From Giardia intestinalis (lineage: Eukaryota), in assembly GCA_000002435.2 (NCBI GenBank), contig CM018793.1: DNA of 64,000 nucleotides; one strand, written 5' to 3'. Each line of letters opens with the position of its first letter. The stretch's first letter is position 1. The position numbers were made by a program, and so were the translations under genes. Positions 13,858 to 64,000 of this stretch are shown here, one piece after another. The notes beneath the pieces were generated by a model, which was not told the DNA's origin, did not search any database, and saw only the letters and a program-made list of their open reading frames with translations.

Positions 13858-16800
13858 ATGCCTCCAGATCCGAGCATGATCACAAAGCTTTTGCAGCAGG
13901 CCGAAGTGGCCTCGGCCCAGCTAGGAAGCACACAATCAAAGCTAAGTCTCAATAAAGCCACTAAGGTCTCAAAGCGGGCCACAACCACGATCACAACCAC
14001 GGCCACAGCAGTCCCCCCACCGGTGCTTCCAGAAGAGGAGGAGCACGGCGATGTCATGACATCAACGATGGAGCACCTTCTGCGAAACCGGGGATATGAG
14101 TATCTCACTGAACAGAATGAGTTAGCCCAAAAGAGCAAAGAGGACGCCCGCATTCTAGTTGAGCAAGGGGCGAAGGAGTTTTTCTATGGCAAAGATCTTC
14201 CGCCGATCAGCTTAACGCAAGACCCGGAACGCTACGTCAACAAGGTTTTATCAGATAACTCAGCGTTTTACTCGAACATCAGAGAGTCGTCTATCACCAA
14301 CAAAGGCAACACTAAACCAGGCTGCACTTTAGAGAACACTGTAAGGAAATGCAGCTCTGTTTTATCTGATGCATCGAGCAACCCTGACACAGTCTCAGCG
14401 AGCGGCACAACAGGATCTACTCATACAGGAAGGGCTTCTAAAGAACCAGGCGCAGTCAGGCAACGCAATCATCGCACACTCGCTACGTCTCTTAATATCG
14501 TACAGAAACTGCTTAACGAACCAGTCACTCGAAAGCAGTCTATATTTACACTTTCTCAGCGCCACTTCCTCACAGCAGACTTCCTCATGGGCGACATAAT
14601 CGATGCTTTAGCATCTGACTCCCGTGAGATGCGAGGTGCAATGGAGATGGCCAGGAAGATCTACACCTCAGCTTATTCAGATAACAAGTGTGGAGACTTT
14701 CTGCTGTCGGCGGAAATAGTACGCCTGAAGCAGGAGTTACACGAAACAAAAATAGCATTAGAAAAGCAGAGACAACGGGCAATTGTCTTGCTCACAGCCA
14801 TGGATGACCGGCGCAAGCTGGACCAAAAGAGAGCAGAAGAAACCGTCAAGAAGGTGGAGGAGCAGAGGGCCATAGAGGTCAATGCTGCAATGCAGCGGAC
14901 TCGTGACTACGGTGAGCAGGTGCGTATACTGCGGGCTGTCATTGAAGCAATTAAAAATGACCAGCAAGTGAAGGAAGTAGAGACCCTCAAGCAGAACCTG
15001 GATTCCTCGCGTGCGCTTACCAGGGAGTTGGAAGGCAAAAACGTGCAGCTCATGGAATCTCTTCAAACACTGCAGGCAGCGTACAGCGATCTTCAGATGG
15101 AGCATCAAGAGGCTGGAGCTGTAATAATGCAGCTGAGAGCAGAGCTAAAGGCTGCTAACAACGAGAGGGAGTACTGTAAGGGTTGTTCGAGTAGGATCAT
15201 AGAGAGGTCCAAATACGTCGGTTCTGAGATAACTAATCGCGTAGAGAGGCTGGAAGCTGTCAGTGCCATACTCTCTGGACTGCAGGTCAATAAGGAAAAG
15301 CTTCAGATGTCTATTGATAACCCAGGAGTGTCAGAGTATCTCTACGAAAAAGAGAAAGTAGTGTCTTCCTTCTTCGATGATTTAAGGGCAGCGGAGAAAG
15401 AGAAGCTGCACCTCCTGCAGCAGGAGCCGCCTGATGCTCAAGCCGAGCATCCCGAAGGACAGAACAAAGGGGCCTCTGTCGTCGACAGAGTAGACGAGTC
15501 GTATTACCTTATTGATCTCAGCAAGTTGGCACGCTCACTCTGTCTTATAGAAATGCGCCTGGAAGCGGCGCCAAAGCTTCAGCAGTTAGACGATGAAATA
15601 ACTGCTCTGCGGTACGAAAACAACAGGCTCAAGAACGTTGAGCAAGAGCTCACCGAGCTAAGGAAGGTATACCGATCTGTTATTTCTCGCACCCAGGCTA
15701 TAGAGCCCAAGGCTTCGGGTGCTGACACAGAAGCGGACCCCAAGGGGGACTCTACAAAGGAAACTCAGGGCGCTTCAGCCGGAAAGATAGAGGGGTCGCA
15801 CTTAGCATCAGCTCAGAACCAAGGTATCTACGAGAACTCTGTGACTCTTCTGCGCGAGCAGCCCTTGCAACTGCTTATATCTAAAAATTTCAAGATACAG
15901 CTAGTAGAAAGAGAAGACAGAGACAAGGAGGGATCAGAGCTTACAACAACACCAAACTACGTCTCCGCGGTTATTTTGAGCTTTCTCCGACACCTCTGCA
16001 TGTCCTCTTTCACATCAGATACGTCGATGTGCCGCCAGCTGACCGGGCGGTGCATGCCAAAAGCCGATGGCACACCCTATCCAACGACTTATCCCATACA
16101 GGCACTCTTTACGGGCTGGGTTCATGCGCAGTATCACATCGTTCCAGAAGATAGGAGGCAGTTTGAGGTCGAGCTACTTGTCAACAAGGTTTCTTGCTGT
16201 CTACAAGCCTTTCAATCTCTCACATCAGACATCTTTATTGAAGACGAGTCAATGCTGCTCTCCCTCGGCTCCCTACTATTAAACACCTCCATCAGCGCAG
16301 ACGAGGTGAGTTTCTTGATATACATTACCATTCTAACACACGGTGGCCTTCCAGACGCCCACCCTGTGCTTCTCCCTCACCTGGAGAAAGACGTAAAGAT
16401 AACCACAGCGTACATCTCCCTAAAACGAGCAATTAATATTATTCTTGCTACTGTCTCCAAAACTATTCAGAAGGGCTTTATCGAGTTCTTTATCCATCAA
16501 GGCCGGTCGACATCGCTGATAAAAGACGTCACGCTGGCCGACATCTCCTCTGGGAGGGTCTTCGTGGTCGACGTATACGAAAACCTGGATGGGGATGACC
16601 TTTATGACGCGGACATTCGTGAGATTTTTGCAGCCAACAAGGACTACTTCAGCGATACTGGAGCGGCGTCCTCCGCTACCGTTGGACTTTCCTCAAGTGT
16701 GGCATCACCCATCAAGAACCTACGGAACCGTGACGATCTAACACGAGTCTCCATCATTAACGCAAACTTCTTTTTGCTGTCCATGCTCAAGGCCTACCGG

Positions 16801-25411: not shown

Positions 25412-26017
25412 GACCTATCCTGTCTTATTCACTGTCTACACCTCAAGATAGCCACTTATCATTCTAGCAGCTAGAGTTCTCAACTCTCCAGTGTTATGTC
25501 CTTGTTGGATCGCCCATAACTATCTGGTGCGTTGTACCGTAGTTTTCGATGCACGTATGCAATGCAGTATCCGATTGTATCTCTATTCGGCAAACGTGAG
25601 ATGTACTTGGATTTACCCTTGAGGCAGAGTATTCATCTTATTAGACGCAACAGTGCTGCCGACCAAGCCACTGCTAGGCAGAGCACACGGCCTGTATCTG
25701 CTCATCTCGTGCTCTAGCCAGCCACCCTGCGTGAGCATCTGGAGACATGCCTGGACATATGTGTGGTATTCTGCGGTGTGTACGGTCCCGTGTCCACGCA
25801 GTAGGCCAGCCAGAGAGCGTGTGCAGGCACGCCATGTGGCACCACGTCCTTTGTGGAGCGCTGGAGGAATACACAGGTGAGGGTCTACCATCAAGATGCG
25901 GACACGTTGCTTCCTGACATGGAAGGTCAATGAGGCTATCCAGATGGCCCAGCTATGGTAGAAGGCTAGCAGATGTGATCGTATTGGCCATCAGCACTGT
26001 CACTAACACCAACATGC

Positions 26018-27610
26018 ATGACTAATGGACCTAGCAGGGCCGCAATGTTGCTACTAGTTCTCTGCTTTTTGATGAGCGCCCTCGCCGCGCAACGCACTAA
26101 ACAACCCACATCCGACTGCGGAGTCGCAAACTGCGCCCAGTGCAACGCGGACGGCAGGACGTGTGATCAGTGCAGCGAGGGGTACAACCTCAACCAGGAG
26201 AAGACCCAGTGCACCAAGGCGTGCGCGGTCGCAAACTGCGCCCAGTGCAACGCGGACGGCAGGACGTGTGATCAGTGCAGCGAGGGGTACAACCTCAACC
26301 AGGAGAAGACCCAGTGCACCAAGGCGTGCGCGGTCGCAAACTGCGCCCAGTGCAACGCGGACGGCAGGACGTGTGATCAGTGCAGCGAGGGGTACAACCT
26401 CAACCAGGAGAAGACCCAGTGCACCAAGGCGTGCGCGGTCGCAAACTGCGCCCAGTGCAACGCGGACGGCAGGACGTGTGATCAGTGCAGCGAGGGGTAC
26501 AACCTCAACCAGGAGAAGACCCAGTGCACCAAGGCGTGCGCGGTCGCAAACTGCGCCCAGTGCAACGCGGACGGCAGGACGTGTGATCAGTGCAGCGAGG
26601 GGTACAACCTCAACCAGGAGAAGACCCAGTGCACCAAGAACCCAGAAGCGCGATGCAATACTCCCAACTGTAAGACCTGTGACAGCCCCAAAACAGACAG
26701 TGAAATCTGCACTGAATGTAATAATGGCAACTACCTCACCCCGACAAAGCAGTGCACGCAGAGCTGCGGAACAATAGGAAGCTACTACAACGGAGACAAA
26801 GTGTGCGAGCCCTGTGATCCTAGCTGTGCTGCGTGCATCACAAAGGGACCAGCGAAGTGCACGCTGTGTCCTCCCGGGAAGAGGCTCCAGTACACAGATG
26901 AAGGAGCCACTCAGAACGGCGGATCCTGCGTAGATGAGTGCAAGCCTGAAGGAGGAGCTAGCGGATGCGAGACCTGCGGAGCCACCATCGGAGGGACAAA
27001 GTATTGCTCGAAGTGCAGCACATCCACGGAGGTCCCCGTCAACGGGGTCTGTACAGCAGACAATGCCCGCGCAGCTGCGTGCAAGGTGAAAGATGGCAAG
27101 GGAGGGTGCACTACGTGTGAGAGTGGATACTTCCTCCAAGACGGCGGTTGCTACAAACTCGGTAGACAGCCCGGTGAGCAGATATGCACAGCAGCCAGTA
27201 GCGCTGGTAAGTGCGAGACGTGCGCCAATAGTCTTCAGCCCAATAATGGAGCATGCCCCTCGTGTCACTCGACCTGTAAGACATGTCGTGATGCTAATTC
27301 TGCAAATGCTTGTACAACGTGTGCAGCTGGGTACTATATGGTCGGATCAGCAGCTGGACCATGCACTTCGTGTGACAGCAACAGTGGAAGTGTCAAGGGA
27401 GTTGCTGGCTGCATGAGCTGCGCTCCTCCATCGTCTAGTACTGGCTCCGTCCTTTGCTACCTCATGAACGGTGACAGTGCCGGCGGAAGCACGAACAAGA
27501 GCGGCCTTAGCACAGGCGCCATCGCAGGCATTTCTGTCGCAGTCATCGTTGTCGTGGGGGGTCTTGTCGGCTTCCTCTGCTGGTGGTTCCTCTGCAGGGG
27601 CAAGGCGTAG
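26018..27610 (+). CDS. variant-specific surface protein (VSP) with five tandem 35 aa repeats
   Basis: There is a signal peptide, pervasive CxxC motifs, and a C-terminal TM 'GLSTGAIAGISVAVIVVVGGLVGFLCWWF' followed by the invariant 'CRGKA' and a stop. AGTAAAC lies 14 nt after the stop. An alternative start at the second ATG (26045) gives the typical 'MLLL' VSP N-terminus. Confidence 0.9.
   Translation: MTNGPSRAAMLLLVLCFLMSALAAQRTKQPTSDCGVANCAQCNADGRTCDQCSEGYNLNQEKTQCTKACAVANCAQCNADGRTCDQCSEGYNLNQEKTQCTKACAVANCAQCNADGRTCDQCSEGYNLNQEKTQCTKACAVANCAQCNADGRTCDQCSEGYNLNQEKTQCTKACAVANCAQCNADGRTCDQCSEGYNLNQEKTQCTKNPEARCNTPNCKTCDSPKTDSEICTECNNGNYLTPTKQCTQSCGTIGSYYNGDKVCEPCDPSCAACITKGPAKCTLCPPGKRLQYTDEGATQNGGSCVDECKPEGGASGCETCGATIGGTKYCSKCSTSTEVPVNGVCTADNARAAACKVKDGKGGCTTCESGYFLQDGGCYKLGRQPGEQICTAASSAGKCETCANSLQPNNGACPSCHSTCKTCRDANSANACTTCAAGYYMVGSAAGPCTSCDSNSGSVKGVAGCMSCAPPSSSTGSVLCYLMNGDSAGGSTNKSGLSTGAIAGISVAVIVVVGGLVGFLCWWFLCRGKA
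26116..26640 (+). repeat. 5 x 105 bp perfect tandem repeat inside VSP coding region
   Basis: The unit encodes 'CAVANCAQCNADGRTCDQCSEGYNLNQEKTQCTKA'. Copies 2-5 are nucleotide-identical in the visible sequence, for example 'gtgtgatcag' recurs every 105 nt. Confidence 0.9.
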
Positions 27611-27624
27611 ATGTGTACTTAGGT

Positions 27625-27631
27625 AGTAAAC
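27625..27631 (+). promoter_or_regulatory. Giardia polyadenylation signal AGTAAAC (VSP)
   Basis: 'aggtagtaaacgcg' lies directly 3' of the VSP stop codon TAG (27608-27610). Confidence 0.7.
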
Positions 27632-28664
27632 GCGTCATTGTGTGTGGCTTATATAAATGTGCTGCTGGGGCTATCTGAGCGTGGCCCAGAGGTCGTGCGG
27701 GTGAGCCCGCTCCTTCCTGGCCAGTCCAGGAACGATGGCTGGTTTTGGATGATATAATAGGGATCTCCCTTCACTTGTATACCAGGAGTCTTTTGCGTCC
27801 CTCAGTTGTTCCGCAGAGGTGTGCTCAGTTCGAGTGTGCGCGTCGCTCAGCCCAGGATTCAACTTACTTGTCCATCTGCATTGTCCACCATTGGTGCCAC
27901 TTCTTGGTCTACCGCTCTGATGCCGGAGGGTCCCAGTAGTTGATGACCCTGGACTGACGCCTCGACAGACCGAAGCATCAGCCCAAGTGTGCTGTGCAGT
28001 GCAGATGGACCAGCCCACACGTCACTGAGCCAGACGCACTGCACAGGGTGAGCGTCGACACGGTCTCGTACTGGATGACGGACCACCTGCAAGAGCGCAC
28101 TGCGATCCATGAGCAGAGGACCATACTTCTCCCCCGATACCAACGCATAGGAGCTGTCCGCCGGCATCCACGAACGCGTACTATGACTCCAAGATAGAGG
28201 CGCACGGGGAGCATACCCTCCGATCATACTCGGAACCGATGATCGCTTCATGGGGAGACAAAGAGGTGCCCCGAGGAACGGGATAGGCACCCGAGGTCGT
28301 GGCGTGCGATCTTCGTCACGGAGCACCAGGGCCACGTGGAGGCCAGGCTGCTGTGACCGACGGTAGCCCCGAGACAACAGGTGCTCACTAGATATCAGAC
28401 GATGGTTGACCCCGACGGGCCAGAGGATGGGAGGAATCTAGAGGCACCGCGAGGAGCGGCAGGTCCCGGGGGAGACAGGATATAGGAGTTCTCCCGCCGG
28501 GATCGAGGGCATCCGACTCTCGGATTTCTGATCTCAGCTATTGTATGAGCGAGAGGCTTGCCCAGGGCGGCAATGGCTCGCATGAAAAGACCACTCCGGT
28601 AGCAGGCGACAACCCCGCCTCATTAAAATTTACTCTTCCCTAACCTCGTCTCTCTAGATATCTG

Positions 28665-33771: not shown

Positions 33772-34051
33772 ATAGTAACTATTTGCAGATCCACACGCTC
33801 ACCCGTCCATAGCGGTTCGTTTCCGGATTGCTCGTTTCCAGTTGTAAATTAATTTAAAGTGAATTCTTCTCAAGTTTTTACGCGGTGTCGAGAATGATGA
33901 GACGTGTTCCTCTCTCCTACAGACTCCCTGGGGATGCTATGTACACCTTACTGATTTACTTTCCTTTTCTCAAGGGCCATTGTGTCGTGCCATTGTGTTT
34001 TTGCGGGGCTTAGTGGTTCCCAGTGCAGTCGCCCGGATCCGGCAGGACCTA

Positions 34052-58200: not shown

Positions 58201-59357
58201 TGCTAAGGTGCACCAGTACAAGTCCTACAGTGTGGCATGATTCGTGAGTCAAAAGGTAGGATGCTTGGGCTGATTGGCGTGTCTCCTCGGGACCAAATAC
58301 AGCTAGGACCAAAGGTCATGAACGAATGCTATTCGATTCCCTTATCAGCAGATGGGGGTCAACTGCTCTAGTATCCACAAGAGGCTATAGAGGGTACTGG
58401 ACCAGGCATCCGGCCAATTGCTGGCAAATCAACACAACCTCCTTGGATCTCCATTCTTTCCTCACAGGCATCTACATGTAGGAAGCTCTGAGGACCTAGA
58501 GCCCTACACTAACAGGCTCAAGGTATTGCACTCCTAGGTGCTTCCATTAGTGGTGGTAGTGATAGCACCAGGATGATCCAGAAGGGGGATAGAAATCCTG
58601 CCCCGTTAGCTCAAGAAATGGCACAGTTTGAGCAGGGTTTCCTCCTTGTTTAAATTTGGGAGTACTAGCCTACGCCCTCTGACCATCTGACGCCTTATCA
58701 TGCGATGGGGAATCTTAATAGTATCCACTACAAAAAGCCAGAAATAGCACCATGCACACCCAACAAACCAGAGCGTCTCATAGGCTAATCTACACTGATT
58801 CGCACTTCCACGGACCCTAGCGACCACTGTAACCGTCTCTCGGGATCTTGCAAGGGACTGTCCTTGAGCGCGATTCCTCCATGACAACCAGAAGTCGCAG
58901 ACATAGTCCAAAGGGATGAGAATACTATAGAGGCGGAGAAGAGATCATCTGCGCACGGGGGTCCGCAGGGGCCCGACCCGCACAGGGAAGGCGTAAGAGG
59001 CCAATTCCCCAGGAATGCAGAGACATTAAGAGAGGAACCAGCAGTGGGCCCATAACACAGGGAGGTCACCCGGGCCGCCCCCTGATTGGCCACAGGGTAG
59101 AGGAGCAGCATGCGCGCGGGACAGCATTGCTACTTATTTTTGAATTTTCTGTTTCCCTGCATGTTGTGCAGGGGTCCGCGGTGGGTGCTAGACTATAGTT
59201 AGTAGATGCTTTCGGCATTAACAACTATCTCTTGTACAACAATATTATCAAAAAGGGATTTCTTTAAGCTGGCAGCATAGCAATAACCGAATGGAGCTTT
59301 TTAGCTTTGGGTATCTTTGCTAGTAGGATTCTTGATAGTGGATTAAGAAGAATCTCA

Positions 59358-60617
59358 ATGTTGCTGATAGCTTTCTATCTTGGGCTGAGCGCCCTTGCGG
59401 CACAATGTAAGCAAGTACAAAATTGTGCAGCAGGTAAGTGTGAGATGGTTGGCGGCACTGAAATTTGTACAGAATGCGCGACAAATGGAAACGTTCCTAT
59501 CAATGGGGAGTGTACACCAAAAGGTAATGCGGCTGATAAATGCAAGAAAGTTAACGGTAATGAGCTTGTTGACGATAAGACATGTGGAAAATGTGAGAAC
59601 ACATACTTCATGTACAAGGGTGGATGCTATCAACTTGGCAGTGATGTCGCACTCCTCATCTGCAACGATCAAGCTGCTTCACCTGGAGGGCGTAATGCTG
59701 TTGCTGGCGTTTGCACAGAATGTAATGCTACTGGGGGATTCTTCAAAAGCCCAGAGGCGGCCGACACGACAGATTCCTGCATATCGTGCAGTGATACAAC
59801 TGGAGTGCAGGTTAATGGCGGTAACACGTATAAAGGTATCGAGAATTGTGTAGTATGTGCAGCTCCAGAAAGAGGAACAGGTAACGAAAATAAGATTGCT
59901 GCATGTGAGTCATGTCTTGAAGGATTCTTCGTTGCATCTAACAAGGCAGTATGCACACGTTGTACTGATAATGATAATTGCGCTAAGTGTGATGCAGGCG
60001 AAAACAAGTGCACAAAATGTAAGGCAACAGCCAGCAAACCATATCTAAAAAAGGGCGAAACCGAGGACTCTAATACATGTGTTAATAGTAACGAATGTAC
60101 TACTGATAAAACTTACTTCACTGATGATACTGACGACCCTACTCATGGAAAGATGTGCAAGAAATGCTCAGAAGGGATAGCAGACTGTAAGAAATGCGCT
60201 CCATCATCACCTTCTGCTTTAGCTACAGTATCCGCAATTGTGTGCACAGAATGTACAACACAGACCAACAAACCCAATGTTGCCGGAACAGGGTGCTTCA
60301 CATGCTCCGTAGACGGATGTAGTAACTGTAGCGAGAATGACGTATGTGAAAAGTGTGGACCTAACAAGAAGGTGAGCCCCGGGAGGAAGTCATGCGTGGA
60401 TAGCTGTCCCGAGAACTCCATTGACGATAACTCTGTCTGTACATGCAGCAGTGGGTACAGCCCTGACAGCAGTGGGGCCTCCTGTGTGTCCACTGGCAGT
60501 AATAGGAGCGGGCTCTCCACGGGGGCCATAGCGGGGATCTCCGTCGCAGTCATCGTCGTCGTCGGGGGTCTCATAGGGTTCCTCTGCTGGTGGTTCGTGT
60601 GTAGGGGGAAGGCGTGA
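59358..60617 (+). CDS. variant-specific surface protein (VSP), left copy of inverted pair
   Basis: Signal peptide 'MLLIAFYLGLSALAA'. There are many CxxC motifs. The C-terminal TM 'GLSTGAIAGISVAVIVVVGGLIGFLCWWF' is followed by 'CRGKA' and a stop. AGTAAAC lies 8 nt after the stop. The track start at 59307 is a TTG, so the first ATG at 59358 is used. Confidence 0.9.
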   Translation: MLLIAFYLGLSALAAQCKQVQNCAAGKCEMVGGTEICTECATNGNVPINGECTPKGNAADKCKKVNGNELVDDKTCGKCENTYFMYKGGCYQLGSDVALLICNDQAASPGGRNAVAGVCTECNATGGFFKSPEAADTTDSCISCSDTTGVQVNGGNTYKGIENCVVCAAPERGTGNENKIAACESCLEGFFVASNKAVCTRCTDNDNCAKCDAGENKCTKCKATASKPYLKKGETEDSNTCVNSNECTTDKTYFTDDTDDPTHGKMCKKCSEGIADCKKCAPSSPSALATVSAIVCTECTTQTNKPNVAGTGCFTCSVDGCSNCSENDVCEKCGPNKKVSPGRKSCVDSCPENSIDDNSVCTCSSGYSPDSSGASCVSTGSNRSGLSTGAIAGISVAVIVVVGGLIGFLCWWFVCRGKA

Positions 60618-61148
60618 CTTAGGTAGTAAACACGTCACTGTATATGGCTTATTACGCTATTCTGCCGGGGCTATCTGAGGATCGCCCAGAGGTCGTGCGA
60701 GTGATCCTCGCTCAAGCTCTGACCAGTCTAAGGACGAGGGTTGGTCATGAATAACATGACGGAGAGCCCTCTCCAGTGACACATCCAGAATCTGGGCATT
60801 CCTCGCCGCTCCATGAGGATATGCTCTGTCTGGATGTCCATGCCGATCTATCTTGGATTCAGGCCTTCTCGCAGGCTCTCTACTCTACCCGTGGCGCCTC
60901 TCCATGGTCTTCCTTCGTGGTGGGTGAAGCTCCGGTCGCTGTTTTTTAGATGCTCCTGTCTGTCAGGGGCTGCCACCGGGCTCTCCGCTGGCTGGGCCCT
61001 CGGTGTCCGTCCGGCTGTGGCCCGGGCAGCGCTCTACGGTCGCGGTCACTTGGGTCTCAGTGGGTTCGGATGGTGGGGAGGCGAGGGGAGTTAGGGCGGT
61101 GAGGCCGGAGGGGCTGGAGGGGCTGGAGGGGCTGAGGTTGGTGGTGGT
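59872..61148. repeat. left arm of large perfect inverted repeat (VSP 3' two-thirds + 530 bp 3' flank); probably extends further left
   Basis: Coordinates x and 123872-x are reverse complements. ORF pairs 60813-61094(+)/62778-63059(-) and 60390-60638(-)/63234-63482(+) translate identically. The arms diverge at about 61148/62724. Confidence 0.85.
60625..60631 (+). promoter_or_regulatory. Giardia polyadenylation signal AGTAAAC (VSP left copy)
   Basis: 'cttaggtagtaaacacg' lies immediately 3' of the TGA stop (60615-60617). Confidence 0.7.
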
Positions 61149-63240
61149 TGTATGCGCCTCTGGTCCCTCGATAGACTGGGGTGATCGCAGCTGTGGTGAC
61201 TGGGGGCTGTCCATCTGTGACTCACCCCTCTGTGTGCTCGTGGTCTGTGAGTGCCTCCACCCAGACAACCCTCAGGAGCCGTGCACACCAGGACAGAGAG
61301 GGTGACAGAGGAGAGTCAAGCAGCCCTGCCACGAGGGTGCACAGCAGCCAGCCTGGGCTGCAGGGCCCGCTCGAGCGATGGTAGTGACAGACGACTCCCT
61401 CTGACAGCAGCCCTGGTGACTGGCACTGGTCTGCTTTCGAGGCTGAGTGACAGTGTGCACAGATGGACATGAGTGCAGGAGGACCATCCACACACGGACA
61501 GACTGTGCCCCCATACGAGAGCGCCAGGCAACCACCCGAGCACCCGAGAGGCAGCAACAGACACGGGCACTAGAGATCCCCAGCCAGACAGCTGCCATGC
61601 TCATCCATAGGGGCATCAGAGGACCAGGGGAGTCACCCTCACAATCAGGGTATGATAGGAAGCCAGAGGACTCAAACACTACAGCATAGCAGATCCAAGG
61701 GAGGCACACTCCAGCAGGCGAGCAGTGGCAGAGCCCTGATAGCTGCCAGCCCCCCATGACACCCAGGCAGGCACCAGGCTCACCGAAGGCTCTGCTGGCC
61801 TCCACCGATGATCCGAGGGGGCAGCAACCAGAGGAGTGGGGAGGCCTTCGGACACCACAAGAGGCCCGGCTGTCCAGCAGGCGATGGAGCACAGGTGGCC
61901 TCTGAGCACCATACAGGCACAGAGCCGACCATCAGAGTGATGCCCGATCAGAGACGACCACGAGCACCCTCCACCGCACTCTGAGGGGCTGTCGATCATC
62001 CCACTGCCTCTCATAGCAGACCTCCTTGAGAGCAGTGCAGTGGGTCCCAGCTCATGCACGCCTCCCCTGGCATAGGACACCCCGGCTCTCCCCGAGGGGT
62101 CATCAGAGCCACGAGAGGTGTCAAGGTCCTGGTAGATCACACCGGGAACTCCCCGAGGGCACAGCAACTGAGATATGAGTGACCCTCAGTGTGCTCCTCT
62201 CTGATGGTAGAGCATCTTGAGACCAAGGGGGTCACCTCTGCCTACGGACGACACACAGCACTCCACAACAAGGACCCACTAGGAGCAGCACAGCTGACCA
62301 CGGGGACAGTGCAGTCACCAGTGCCCCACCGTGCCAGTTTTCTGGGCCATCATACTATAGGCATGAGAGAACCCCATCCCATCCACAGGGTCATCCATGC
62401 CCCTGCTGGCCCGAGGTGAACTCCCCGTCGAGGCGCTGGACAGGGCATGCCAGGGGCTCAGCAGACCCACAGAGAGAATCAGCGAGTAGCAGGAGGGGCT
62501 GCGATGGCCTGCCTCAGCCCTCACGTACCAGCCAGACAGAGAGACAGTACTGCCTGAGGCATGCAGGGGCCAAGGGAGGCGATCAGTCAGGGGACACGAC
62601 ACGATCGTCGGTGCCTGTGTCTCGGGAGTGCAACGAAGGCTGGAGATCAGACACAGCCACCTTAGCAAACAGAGTGGGGACAACCCACCACCCCAATAGC
62701 CCACCGAACCCAGAGGCACATACAACACCACCAACCTCAGCCCCTCCAGCCCCTCCAGCCCCTCCGGCCTCACCGCCCTAACTCCCCTCGCCTCCCCACC
62801 ATCCGAACCCACTGAGACCCAAGTGACCGCGACCGTAGAGCGCTGCCCGGGCCACAGCCGGACGGACACCGAGGGCCCAGCCAGCGGAGAGCCCGGTGGC
62901 AGCCCCTGACAGACAGGAGCATCTAAAAAACAGCGACCGGAGCTTCACCCACCACGAAGGAAGACCATGGAGAGGCGCCACGGGTAGAGTAGAGAGCCTG
63001 CGAGAAGGCCTGAATCCAAGATAGATCGGCATGGACATCCAGACAGAGCATATCCTCATGGAGCGGCGAGGAATGCCCAGATTCTGGATGTGTCACTGGA
63101 GAGGGCTCTCCGTCATGTTATTCATGACCAACCCTCGTCCTTAGACTGGTCAGAGCTTGAGCGAGGATCACTCGCACGACCTCTGGGCGATCCTCAGATA
63201 GCCCCGGCAGAATAGCGTAATAAGCCATATACAGTGACGT

Positions 63241-63247
63241 GTTTACT
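63241..63247 (-). promoter_or_regulatory. Giardia polyadenylation signal AGTAAAC (VSP right copy)
   Basis: 'gtttact' on the plus strand equals AGTAAAC on the minus strand, directly 3' of the minus-strand VSP stop. Confidence 0.7.
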
Positions 63248-63254
63248 ACCTAAG

Positions 63255-64000
63255 TCACGCCTTCCCCCTACACACGAACCACCAGCAGAGGAACCCTATG
63301 AGACCCCCGACGACGACGATGACTGCGACGGAGATCCCCGCTATGGCCCCCGTGGAGAGCCCGCTCCTATTACTGCCAGTGGACACACAGGAGGCCCCAC
63401 TGCTGTCAGGGCTGTACCCACTGCTGCATGTACAGACAGAGTTATCGTCAATGGAGTTCTCGGGACAGCTATCCACGCATGACTTCCTCCCGGGGCTCAC
63501 CTTCTTGTTAGGTCCACACTTTTCACATACGTCATTCTCGCTACAGTTACTACATCCGTCTACGGAGCATGTGAAGCACCCTGTTCCGGCAACATTGGGT
63601 TTGTTGGTCTGTGTTGTACATTCTGTGCACACAATTGCGGATACTGTAGCTAAAGCAGAAGGTGATGATGGAGCGCATTTCTTACAGTCTGCTATCCCTT
63701 CTGAGCATTTCTTGCACATCTTTCCATGAGTAGGGTCGTCAGTATCATCAGTGAAGTAAGTTTTATCAGTAGTACATTCGTTACTATTAACACATGTATT
63801 AGAGTCCTCGGTTTCGCCCTTTTTTAGATATGGTTTGCTGGCTGTTGCCTTACATTTTGTGCACTTGTTTTCGCCTGCATCACACTTAGCGCAATTATCA
63901 TTATCAGTACAACGTGTGCATACTGCCTTGTTAGATGCAACGAAGAATCCTTCAAGACATGACTCACATGCAGCAATCTTATTTTCGTTACCTGTTCCTC
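63255..64000 (-). CDS. variant-specific surface protein (VSP), right inverted copy, 5' part beyond window end
   Basis: The minus-strand ORF encodes the identical C-terminal 154 aa '...GLSTGAIAGISVAVIVVVGGLIGFLCWWFVCRGKA'. The reverse complement of the last 40 nt of the window exactly matches 59872-59911 of the left copy. Confidence 0.85.
   Translation of the reverse strand, partial: GTGNENKIAACESCLEGFFVASNKAVCTRCTDNDNCAKCDAGENKCTKCKATASKPYLKKGETEDSNTCVNSNECTTDKTYFTDDTDDPTHGKMCKKCSEGIADCKKCAPSSPSALATVSAIVCTECTTQTNKPNVAGTGCFTCSVDGCSNCSENDVCEKCGPNKKVSPGRKSCVDSCPENSIDDNSVCTCSSGYSPDSSGASCVSTGSNRSGLSTGAIAGISVAVIVVVGGLIGFLCWWFVCRGKA

What the first reader, a model, noticed from the sequence alone, without database searches (positions are those of the whole stretch)
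27608..27730. Conserved ~100 bp element downstream of the poly(A) signal shared by two different VSP loci
After the stop codons of VSP-1 (27608) and VSP-2 (60615, and its inverted twin) the sequences remain about 80% identical for roughly 100 nt beyond the AGTAAAC signal: 'cttaggtagtaaacgcgtcattgtgtgtggcttat...ggggctatctgagcgtggcccagaggtcgtgcgggtgagcccgctcc' versus 'cttaggtagtaaacacgtcactgtatatggcttat...ggggctatctgaggatcgcccagaggtcgtgcgagtgatcctcgctc'. The core blocks are 'GGGGCTATCTGAG' and 'CCCAGAGGTCGTGCG'. The ectodomains of the two VSPs are unrelated at nucleotide level, so this is not simple duplication of the gene body. Conservation downstream of the cleavage site suggests a shared cis element, such as a terminator, antisense promoter or recombination/gene-conversion signal, associated with the VSP family.
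Basis: seen in the sequence. Interest (0 to 1): 0.6.

Follow-up and report, generated by a model that had tools for sequence, protein, structure and literature searches.

The report
Shared 3' flank repeat of Giardia VSPs
The similarity downstream of two Giardia surface-antigen (VSP) genes is real, but it is the start of a 0.3-0.65 kb non-coding flank repeat that only some VSP genes carry and that is reshuffled by gene conversion, not a motif shared by the whole gene family.

Summary
The window is Giardia lamblia WB. The 3' flanks of VSP-1 (stop 27608-27610) and of the VSP-2 tail-to-tail pair are 78% identical over about 116 nt, and homology continues to about +300 nt (E 2.5e-30).

The first ~25-35 nt are the published VSP-specific extended poly(A) signal. 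The rest belongs to a paralogous, non-coding flank repeat. I found it at 3 of 7 assemblage-A VSP loci sampled. It was absent from all 4 assemblage B/E VSP ends.

Flank divergence is as high as third-codon-position divergence, so there is no sign of constraint.

Relationships among copies change segment by segment. The DH ortholog of VSP-2 is 95-100% identical in the gene body but only 57-78% identical across a ~490-nt patch. That patch covers the 3' coding end and the proximal flank, which marks it as a gene-conversion tract.

I found no conserved ORF and no Rfam match. Hairpin covariation is not significant.

Side finding: the untruncated flank copies end in a G-rich, G-quadruplex-type tract. 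That tract abuts the arm boundary of the inverted pair in both WB and DH.

Verdict: ordinary paralogous flank homology shaped by gene conversion. Modest interest.

The parts
26018..27610 (+). VSP-1 coding sequence. The likely true start is the Inr-type CAATGTT at about 26045. It contains 4.9 perfect 105-nt tandem repeats at 26123-26638 and ends CRGKA*.
   Evidence: Exact match to XP_001705986.1, VSP of G. lamblia ATCC 50803.
27617..27633 (+). Extended VSP poly(A) signal ACTTAGGTAGTAAACGC, with the AGTAAA hexamer at 27625-27630.
   Evidence: Matches the published consensus ACUUAGRUAGURAAYRY (bioRxiv 10.1101/2022.03.07.483299).
27611..27932 (+). VSP-1 copy of the 3'-flank repeat family. It is truncated at about +300-320 nt, just before a retroelement-associated repeat.
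   Evidence: blastn. nhmmer aligned 27652-27932, E 5e-71 (this copy was in the training set). Alignments A2 and A3.
27667..27699 (+). They are shared only by the WB VSP-1 and VSP-2 copies.
   Evidence: Other family members are 37-65% identical across this segment (columns 164-227 of A2).
27716..27742 (+). The best-conserved distal block, CCTGGCCAGTCCAGGAACGATGGCTGG. It can form a 10-bp hairpin, but the statistical support is inconclusive.
   Evidence: Alignments. Folding gives -9 to -14 kcal/mol with z from -0.25 to -3. Covariation is not significant: 77 of 500 shuffles reach the observed value.
59358..60617 (+). VSP-2 coding sequence, the left member of an identical tail-to-tail pair.
   Evidence: Exact match to KAE8305600.1 / KAE8305601.1.
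60617..60633 (+). Extended poly(A) signal of VSP-2. It overlaps the last base of the stop codon.
60618..61146 (+). VSP-2 copy of the flank repeat, which is also the non-coding part of the left palindrome arm (529 nt).
   Evidence: nhmmer aligned 60652-61240. The figures of 529 nt and 2637 nt between ORFs match vsp107 in Table 5 of PMC2996952.
61103..61134 (+). (GGCTGGAGG)x3.6 G-rich microsatellite at the distal end of the flank, 12 nt before the arm boundary. Its mirror copy lies at 62738-62769.
62602..63254 (-). Flank copy of the twin VSP-2. Its homology to the DH P0068 flank continues about 124 nt past the arm boundary, so this is probably the ancestral copy. It includes a canonical G4 motif at 62684-62711.
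   Evidence: DH P0068 flank 473-755 matches 62889-62602, 74%. (nhmmer 63220-62602)..
63255..64000 (-). Twin VSP-2 coding sequence. It runs off the window end.

Best explanation
The ~100-nt stretch is not a discrete element. It is the proximal part of a 0.3-0.65 kb non-coding 3'-flank repeat that travels with a subset of assemblage-A VSP genes as part of their duplication unit.

Its first ~25-35 nt are the functional, already published VSP-specific extended poly(A) signal and cleavage region.

The rest is kept patchily similar because gene conversion between paralogous VSP 3' ends runs on into the homologous flank. These events are seeded by the nearly invariant TM/CRGKA coding end and the poly(A) signal.

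Shown: homology of the flanks, their distribution among the sampled loci, lack of constraint, mosaicism, and a replaced patch between orthologs.

Inferred: that conversion starts in the conserved coding end, and that the flank sequence beyond the poly(A) region has no function of its own.
For: 1. Homology extends well beyond the reported 100 nt, to about +300 nt for VSP-1 and to +530-650 nt for the other copies.

2. Other members exist next to unrelated VSP bodies. These are the DH P0068 flank (L010 12125-12879), the DH ortholog of the VSP-2 pair (L004), and inverted relic copies at L010 9444-9912 and 12903-13017.

3. The family is absent, by blastn and by nhmmer, from the DH P0042 locus, two VSP ends in L011, L012, P15 L001 and three GS_B ends in L005.

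4. Flank divergence of 29-63% is not lower than third-codon-position divergence of 28-51% in the adjacent 39 codons.

5. The copies are mosaic. The nearest neighbour changes from segment to segment. The three quartet patterns are supported 21/20/18 and are clustered, P about 0.03.

6. WB versus DH at the colinear VSP-2 locus is 95-100% identical at 59078-60377. Identity is 87, 72, 78, 63 and 57% in the five consecutive ~100-nt windows from 60378 to 60868, then returns to 86-89%. Both palindrome arms in each genome carry their own version at 100% arm identity.

7. There is no frame-conserved ORF, no blastx similarity to 172 proteins that are mostly VSPs, and no Rfam match even at E<=1.

8. Literature. 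The extended PAS is known and VSP-specific. Swapping the 100-nt 3' region of VSP417 did not change episomal expression. Giardia lacks recognisable auxiliary poly(A) elements (PMC9014877).
Against: The sample is small: 7 assemblage-A loci, chosen as protein relatives of VSP-2, of which only two (three VSP 3' ends) are from WB itself. The true share of VSPs with this flank is therefore unknown.

In Table S6 of the preprint, 70 of the listed extended-PAS hits share the family's AAAC(G/A)CGT continuation. The family could therefore be large in WB. However, one DH VSP end with that same continuation (L011, PAS at 13965) lacks the flank.

One block (27716-27742) stays 85-95% conserved in the four VSP-attached copies and can form a hairpin with one compensatory change.

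The G-rich/G4 tract at the distal end is specifically associated with the family, which hints at some function.

Third codon positions are an imperfect neutral yardstick, because the coding end is itself subject to conversion and to codon bias.
Confidence: 0.7

Rival explanations
1. The flank is a functional recombination and termination module. It would consist of the poly(A) signal, about 450-550 nt of spacer, and a G-quadruplex-forming G-rich tract on the sense strand. The tract would stall polymerases, set the boundary of the tail-to-tail inverted duplications, and promote or limit gene conversion among VSP 3' ends.
For: All 5 canonical G4 motifs found in the ~225 kb of assemblage-A sequence held (including near-duplicate loci) lie at the distal ends of flank copies.

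The perfect palindrome arms end 12 nt after the G-rich microsatellite in WB and 19 nt before the G4 tract in DH.

In Table 5 of PMC2996952, 7 of 9 identical tail-to-tail pairs diverge 486-559 nt past the stop. This matches the distance from the stop codon to the G-tract.

DH P0068 is bracketed by inverted flank copies.
Against: Only three loci carry the tract. The VSP-1 copy is truncated and lacks it.

The WB left arm has six G-runs, but one 13-nt loop makes it fail the canonical G4 pattern.

A boundary next to a low-complexity tract could also be a passive limit on homology-dependent conversion.

No functional data exist, and I found no paper linking G4 motifs with Giardia VSP loci.
Confidence: 0.14
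2. The region encodes a structured non-coding RNA or RNA element. Candidates are the hairpins at 27697-27710 and 27716-27742, acting on read-through transcripts or as a small-RNA precursor.
For: RNAalifold places a 10-bp hairpin over the best-conserved block, with one G-C to A-U compensatory change and several G-U-compatible changes that fit the sense strand only. Single-sequence energies are -9 to -14 kcal/mol.
Against: The covariation term is only -0.75 kcal/mol, with many broken pairs. The shuffle control reaches the observed covariation in 63-77 of 500 trials. z-scores range from -0.25 to -3, and the hairpin is lost in the relic copy. There is no Rfam hit at E<=1. The element lies downstream of the mapped cleavage region.
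Confidence: 0.05
3. One reading: a cis-regulatory element (terminator, antisense promoter or recombination signal) common to the VSP family, with GGGGCTATCTGAG and CCCAGAGGTCGTGCG as its core.
For: Both blocks occur exactly, and only, at the three VSP ends in the window.
Against: Two of those three sites are one duplicated locus. The blocks are changed in the DH ortholog and in DH P0068. They are absent from all other VSP ends sampled in assemblages A, B and E. More than half of WB vsp genes lie in linear arrays whose intergenic regions average about 60 bp, which leaves no room for the element (PMC2996952).
Confidence: 0.03
4. The flank is a mobile or retroposed repeat (SINE-like or fragment of a transposon) that inserts next to VSP genes independently of them.
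For: Copies exist without an attached VSP 3' coding end (L010 9444-9912 and 12903-13017). The VSP-1 copy abuts a repeat that in P15 lies just downstream of a reverse-transcriptase gene.
Against: Every full copy starts exactly at a VSP stop/poly(A) signal. The detached copy still shows a decayed PAS-like sequence, so it looks like a relic of a VSP end. I saw no terminal repeats, poly(A) tail or ORF, though target-site duplications were not searched for specifically. The flank shows no similarity to the retroelement-associated repeat.
Confidence: 0.06

Closest known systems
VSP-specific extended polyadenylation signal ACUUAGRUAGURAAYRY (bioRxiv 10.1101/2022.03.07.483299). The general Giardia AGURAA signal is described in PMC9014877.
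   Same: It sits 6-9 nt after the stop of a CRGKA-ending ORF, as published.
   Different: That study scanned only stop + 50 nt and describes nothing further downstream. The homology here continues for 300-650 nt, but only in a subset of loci.
Identical inverted (tail-to-tail) vsp gene pairs with flanks identical up to an abrupt divergence point (Adam et al. 2010, PMC2996952; prototype vsp1267).
   Same: VSP-2 and its twin are such a pair. With 529 nt of identical 3' flank and 2637 nt between ORFs, they match vsp107 in Table 5 of that paper.
   Different: The paper treats flank identity within a pair only. Here the same flank is shared, in diverged and mosaic form, with non-identical VSPs at other loci (VSP-1, DH P0068), and the arm boundary abuts a G-rich tract.
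Conserved 3' homology blocks that delimit gene conversion in other antigen families, such as the Trypanosoma brucei VSG 3' end/3' UTR and the Neisseria Sma/Cla repeat downstream of pil loci. Recalled from general knowledge, not tested here.
   Same: A variable gene body is framed by conserved ends, and conversion tracts run through the conserved 3' end.
   Different: In those systems the block is present at essentially all family members and has been shown experimentally to matter. Here it is present in a minority of sampled loci and no requirement has been shown.
G-quadruplex motifs linked to antigen-gene recombination, such as the Neisseria pilE G4 and G4 motifs near Plasmodium var genes. 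Recalled from general knowledge.
   Same: A G4-type tract sits next to antigen genes at a recombination or duplication boundary.
   Different: There is only positional association, in three Giardia loci. The tract lies ~0.5 kb downstream of the gene, not upstream, and there is no functional evidence.

Membership tests
VSP extended poly(A) signal | Sequence ACUUAGRUAGURAAYRY | tested here: met
   27617-27633, 60617-60633 and 63239-63255(-). The core CTTAGRTAGTRAAY matches exactly at all three sites; 0.16 matches were expected by chance.
VSP extended poly(A) signal | Lies within ~28 nt downstream of the stop of an ORF ending CRGKA | tested here: met
   The motif starts 7 nt after the stop in VSP-1 and overlaps the stop in VSP-2.
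   Flank homology was found at 3 of 7 assemblage-A loci and at 0 of 4 B/E ends. The two core blocks occur only in WB VSP-1 and VSP-2.
   Columns 164-227 of A2 are 37-71% identical. The extended-PAS segment is 86-97% identical, and the next segment is 59-85%.
Identical inverted tail-to-tail VSP pair | Two identical ORFs, convergent, 2-4 kb apart, with flanks identical up to an abrupt divergence point | tested here: met
   The arms are 100% complementary over at least 1275 nt, the spacer is 1579 nt, 529 nt of flank lie within the arm, and there are 2637 nt between ORFs. This matches Table 5 of PMC2996952.
Paralogous flank repeat homogenised by gene conversion | Homology at several loci with unrelated gene bodies | tested here: met
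Paralogous flank repeat homogenised by gene conversion | Mosaic relationships (no single tree) and a replaced patch between orthologs | tested here: met
   Quartet patterns are 21/20/18 and clustered, P about 0.03. Nearest neighbours switch between segments. WB versus DH shows a diverged patch at 60378-60868.
Paralogous flank repeat homogenised by gene conversion | No stronger constraint than at silent sites | tested here: met
   Flank divergence is 29-63%, against 28-51% at third codon positions. This is a rough yardstick based on four sequences.
Structured RNA family | Significant covariation or a match to a curated model | tested here: inconclusive
   There is no Rfam hit. The alifold covariation term is -0.75 kcal/mol. 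77 of 500 shuffles equal the observed value. Only 4-5 sequences were available.
Small protein-coding ORF | An open frame conserved across copies, with indels in multiples of three | tested here: not met
   Stop-free segments fall in different frames in different copies. The alignments contain 1- and 2-nt indels.
G4-associated recombination site (pilE-like) | A canonical G4 motif at the site | tested here: met
   Motifs at window 62684-62711(-), L004 11777-11821 and 13495-13530(-), and L010 12692-12752 and 9452-9483(-). The WB left arm narrowly fails the canonical pattern.
G4-associated recombination site (pilE-like) | G4 formation is required for recombination | not testable with these tools
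   This needs mutagenesis or G4-ligand experiments.

The most novel reading that the evidence does not exclude
A subset of Giardia VSP genes carries a defined ~0.5 kb 3' module running from the extended poly(A) signal to a G-quadruplex-forming tract. The G-tract would set the boundary of the recurrent tail-to-tail inverted duplications (arms of about 490-560 nt in 7 of 9 published pairs). It would also channel gene conversion among VSP 3' ends. That would make it a G4-linked recombination device for diversifying surface antigens, analogous in logic to the Neisseria pilE G4.
Probability: 0.13. Interest if true: 0.6.

Novelty: new member of a known kind. Interest (0 to 1): 0.3.

Why it matters
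The result matters mostly as a correction. Sequence conserved beyond the VSP poly(A) signal should not be read as a family-wide regulatory motif.

For Giardia biology it adds two modest points. First, some VSP genes share a diverged 3' flank that has not been described in the papers I could search. Second, conversion tracts can run from the conserved coding end about 250 nt into that flank, which shows directly that VSP 3' ends are exchanged between loci.

The association of rare G4-type tracts with the ends of the flank and with the palindrome arm boundaries gives a concrete, cheaply testable lead on how the puzzling identical inverted VSP pairs arise and stay identical.

Tried and rejected
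**Fetching WB loci.** Look-ups of WB VSP loci failed because the chromosome-scale WB assembly is not indexed (VSP-1 itself, P0003, P0008, P0017). WB is therefore represented by the window only, and I used DH, other assemblage-A assemblies, P15 and GS_B instead.

**Public collections.** A scan of JGI metagenome contigs for the conserved VSP C-terminal coding pattern found nothing, so there was no extra sampling from that source.

**Flank ORFs as protein queries.** I used a flank ORF translation as a protein query to find further copies through called ORFs. It gave a single 77-aa ENA hit, so this was not a usable route.

**Synteny.** I looked for a syntenic P15 ortholog of VSP-1 to measure cross-assemblage constraint. 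The P15 site holds an ankyrin-repeat gene instead of a VSP.

**Preprint supplements.** Searching for flank motifs gave no hits. Table S6 holds only 20-nt matches.

**Ideas rejected.**
- Coding small ORFs: the paired 36-41 aa ORFs seen in both flanks are not in a conserved frame in the other copies.
- Decayed VSP array member: blastx gave no hit.
- Known RNA family: no match.
- Metazoan-type GU-rich downstream element for the TGTGTGTGG stretch: Giardia shows no such auxiliary elements genome-wide (PMC9014877).
- Alternative polyadenylation placing the flank in a long 3' UTR: there is no second AGTRAA within >1 kb of the WB flanks.
Full report
**Source and context.** The window is Giardia lamblia WB (ATCC 50803), from the 4.02-Mb chromosome. 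Seven window ORFs match WB proteins exactly, and the Giardia snoRNA GlsR10 lies at 33891-33958. VSP-1 (26018-27610, +) and VSP-2 (59358-60617, +) are variant-specific surface proteins that end in CRGKA. VSP-2 has an identical convergent twin. The inverted-repeat arms are 59872-61146 and 62726-64000, 100% complementary, with a 1579-nt spacer. With 529 nt of identical 3' flank and 2637 nt between the ORFs, the pair corresponds to vsp107 in Table 5 of Adam et al. 2010 (PMC2996952).

**Observation check.** The two blocks occur exactly three times each, only at the three VSP ends. The similarity is longer than reported. It begins about 120 nt upstream of the stop, in the conserved C-terminal coding region, and continues to about +300 nt (69% over 429 nt, E 5e-56; flank alone 66% over 300 nt, E 2.5e-30). 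The gene bodies are otherwise unrelated at the nucleotide level, apart from 79 nt around the start codon. Because the twin is a perfect copy, the window holds two independent loci, not three.

**What is already known.** The first part of the stretch, ACTTAGGTAGTAAAC(G/A)C, is the VSP-specific extended poly(A) signal ACUUAGRUAGURAAYRY. It has been reported for all 136 WB VSPs, but that study scanned only stop + 50 nt (bioRxiv 10.1101/2022.03.07.483299). VSP cleavage sites were reported 16-38 nt after the coding region. Everything beyond about +40 is therefore outside the usual mature mRNA. Giardia shows no recognisable upstream or downstream auxiliary poly(A) elements genome-wide (PMC9014877). 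For that reason I do not assign the conserved ACGCGTCAYTGTRTRTGGCTTAT to a known class of downstream element.

**Other loci.** The chromosome-scale WB assembly could not be reached through the look-up tool. I therefore sampled VSP loci from the following sources:
- DH (assemblage AII): L004, L008, L010, L011.
- ENA assemblies carrying assemblage-A-type VSPs: L006, L007, L009, L012.
- P15 (assemblage E): L001.
- GS_B (assemblage B): L005.

The flank is homologous at three places outside the window:
- The DH counterpart of the VSP-2 pair (L004).
- The 3' side of an unrelated 707-aa DH VSP, P0068 (L010 12125-12879).
- Two detached inverted copies next to that same gene, at L010 9444-9912 and 12903-13017.

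By blastn and by an nhmmer profile built from the five copies, the flank is absent from these loci:
- The DH P0042 locus.
- Two VSP ends in L011.
- L012.
- The P15 VSP closest to VSP-2.
- Three GS_B VSP ends.

The tally is 3 of 7 assemblage-A loci and 0 of 4 B/E ends. The sample was chosen as protein relatives of VSP-2, so it is biased if anything toward finding the flank.

**Conservation profile.** In the four-way alignment A2, pairwise identity by segment is as follows:

| Segment | Pairwise identity |
|---|---|
| Extended PAS plus ~20 nt | 86-97% |
| Following 73 columns | 59-85% |

The blocks are therefore a pair-specific patch, not a motif. Flank divergence (29-63%) is as high as or higher than divergence at third codon positions in the adjacent 39 codons (28-51%). 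This gives no sign of purifying selection beyond the poly(A) region.

**Mosaicism and gene conversion.** The closest relative changes from segment to segment:
- VSP-1 is nearest to the DH VSP-2-like copy in the coding end.
- VSP-1 is nearest to DH P0068 at the PAS.
- VSP-1 is nearest to VSP-2 in the block segment.
- The two DH copies are nearest each other in the next segment.
- VSP-2 is nearest to its DH ortholog further on.

The three possible quartet site patterns are supported almost equally (21, 20, 18), and like patterns are clustered along the alignment (26 adjacent like pairs against 18.7 expected, P about 0.03).

The clearest evidence is the colinear WB-DH comparison of the VSP-2 locus:

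| WB coordinates | WB-DH identity |
|---|---|
| 59078-60377 (VSP-2 body) | 95-100% |
| 60378-60868, five consecutive ~100-nt windows | 87, 72, 78, 63, 57% |
| 60869-61064 | 86-89% |

This ~490-nt patch covers the last ~240 nt of coding sequence, the poly(A) signal and the first ~250 nt of flank. One lineage has had this segment overwritten from another paralog. The two palindrome arms within each genome are 100% identical, so each genome's arms carry its own version. Arm-to-arm homogenisation must therefore have followed the overwriting.

**Not coding, not a known RNA.**
- Stop-free segments fall in different frames in different copies, and the alignments contain 1- and 2-nt indels.
- blastx against 172 proteins, mostly VSPs, gives nothing. 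The flank is therefore not a decayed array member.
- Rfam gives no match even at E<=1.
- RNAalifold finds a 10-bp hairpin over the best-conserved distal block (27716-27742) with one compensatory change. However, the covariation term is -0.75 kcal/mol, z-scores range from -0.25 to -3, and 77 of 500 shuffles match the observed covariation. This is inconclusive.

**Distal end of the flank.** The untruncated copies end in a G-rich tract. In WB this includes (GGCTGGAGG)x3.6 at 61103-61134, with a mirror copy at 62738-62769.

Canonical G4 motifs are rare in the sequence held here: 8 in about 262 kb. All 5 that lie in assemblage-A DNA sit at the distal ends of flank copies.

The perfect arms of the inverted pair end 12 nt after the tract in WB and 19 nt before it in DH. 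In Adam's Table 5, 7 of 9 identical tail-to-tail pairs diverge 486-559 nt past the stop. That is about the distance from the stop codon to the G-tract. This suggests, but does not show, that those pairs carry the same flank.

The twin's flank stays homologous to the DH P0068 flank for about 124 nt beyond the arm boundary. The minus-strand copy therefore looks ancestral, and the plus-strand copy looks like the inverted duplicate.

**Mechanism.** The best-supported reading has two parts.
- The extended poly(A) signal is the functional part, and it is already known.
- The rest is a paralogous flank that belongs to the duplication unit of a VSP subfamily. It is patch-wise homogenised by gene conversion seeded in the nearly invariant 3' coding end.

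Shown: homology, patchy distribution, neutral-like divergence, mosaicism, and the ortholog patch. Inferred: where conversion starts, and that the flank beyond the poly(A) region has no function of its own.

The main rival is that the flank with its G4 tract is a functional recombination or termination module. A published swap of the 100-nt 3' region of VSP417 had no effect on episomal expression. That argues weakly against a regulatory role for the proximal flank.

**Novelty and limits.** I found no description of 3'-flank homology between non-identical VSPs, or of G4 tracts at VSP loci, in the searchable literature. The phenomenon is nevertheless an ordinary property of recombining multigene families.

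The main limit is sampling. Only three WB VSP ends and nine other distinct VSP ends could be read. In Table S6 of the preprint, 70 extended-PAS hits share the family's AAAC(G/A)CGT continuation, so the family may be sizeable in WB. That tag is not sufficient for membership, because one DH end has it without the flank.

Noticed in passing
window 27951-28543 (also 28545-28628): The T-poor distal part of the VSP-1/Spc24 intergenic region is about 64% similar over ~720 nt to two P15 sites. One is L001 6858-7578, just downstream of an RVT_1 reverse-transcriptase gene. The other is L002 1203-1923. A related piece lies at L004 5467-5681, downstream of a weak RVT_1 ORF. This is probably a relic of a non-LTR retrotransposon, and it marks where the VSP-1 flank homology stops.
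   Followed up: partly
window 62684-62711(-); L004 11777-11821 and 13495-13530(-); L010 12692-12752 and 9452-9483(-): Canonical G-quadruplex motifs are very rare in the Giardia DNA held here (8 in ~262 kb). All five in assemblage-A sequence sit at the distal ends of copies of the VSP flank repeat. In both WB and DH they lie next to the boundary of the perfect palindrome arms.
   Followed up: partly
L010 9444-9912(-), 12125-12879(+), 12903-13017(-): The DH VSP P0068 is bracketed by inverted copies of the flank repeat. One copy lies ~90 nt upstream of the annotated ORF with only a decayed PAS-like sequence. A short inverted partial copy lies just beyond its own 3' flank. These look like remnants of earlier inverted-pair arrangements.
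   Followed up: partly
window 26123-26638: VSP-1 contains 4.9 perfectly identical 105-nt tandem repeats (35 aa each). This is the same period as the 105-bp repeat described for vspC5 in PMC2996952. The exact VSP-1 protein is on record only from the older WB annotation, which may reflect repeat-number differences between assemblies.
   Followed up: no
L006 vs L007/L008/L009, position 11290: Assemblies carrying the identical VSP P0042 are 100% identical for 11,290 nt, up to 57 nt past the stop codon and just after the poly(A) signal. Beyond that point they share no similarity, and different downstream genes follow. This is either a rearrangement breakpoint at the VSP 3' end or an assembly chimera.
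   Followed up: partly
window 26014-26092 vs 59328-59405: The 5' ends of VSP-1 and VSP-2 are also 68% similar over 79 nt. Both carry the Inr-type CAATGTT at the probable true start codon. Both gene ends are therefore conserved around unrelated bodies.
   Followed up: no
L002 2105-5176 vs window 26018-27610: At the position upstream of the Spc24-like gene, where WB has VSP-1, P15 (assemblage E) has a 1023-aa gene whose C-terminal sequence looks ankyrin-repeat-like (no Pfam hit is on record for it). This VSP locus is therefore not syntenic between assemblages.
   Followed up: partly
window 33891-33958: The box C/D snoRNA GlsR10 is present (Rfam RF02478, 105 bits).
   Followed up: no
L005 11202 and 17774: Two assemblage-B VSP ends share their own continuation after the poly(A) signal (AAACGTCGATGAGGGGTGTG) before diverging. 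Short subgroup-specific post-PAS similarity therefore also exists in assemblage B, with a different sequence.
   Followed up: no
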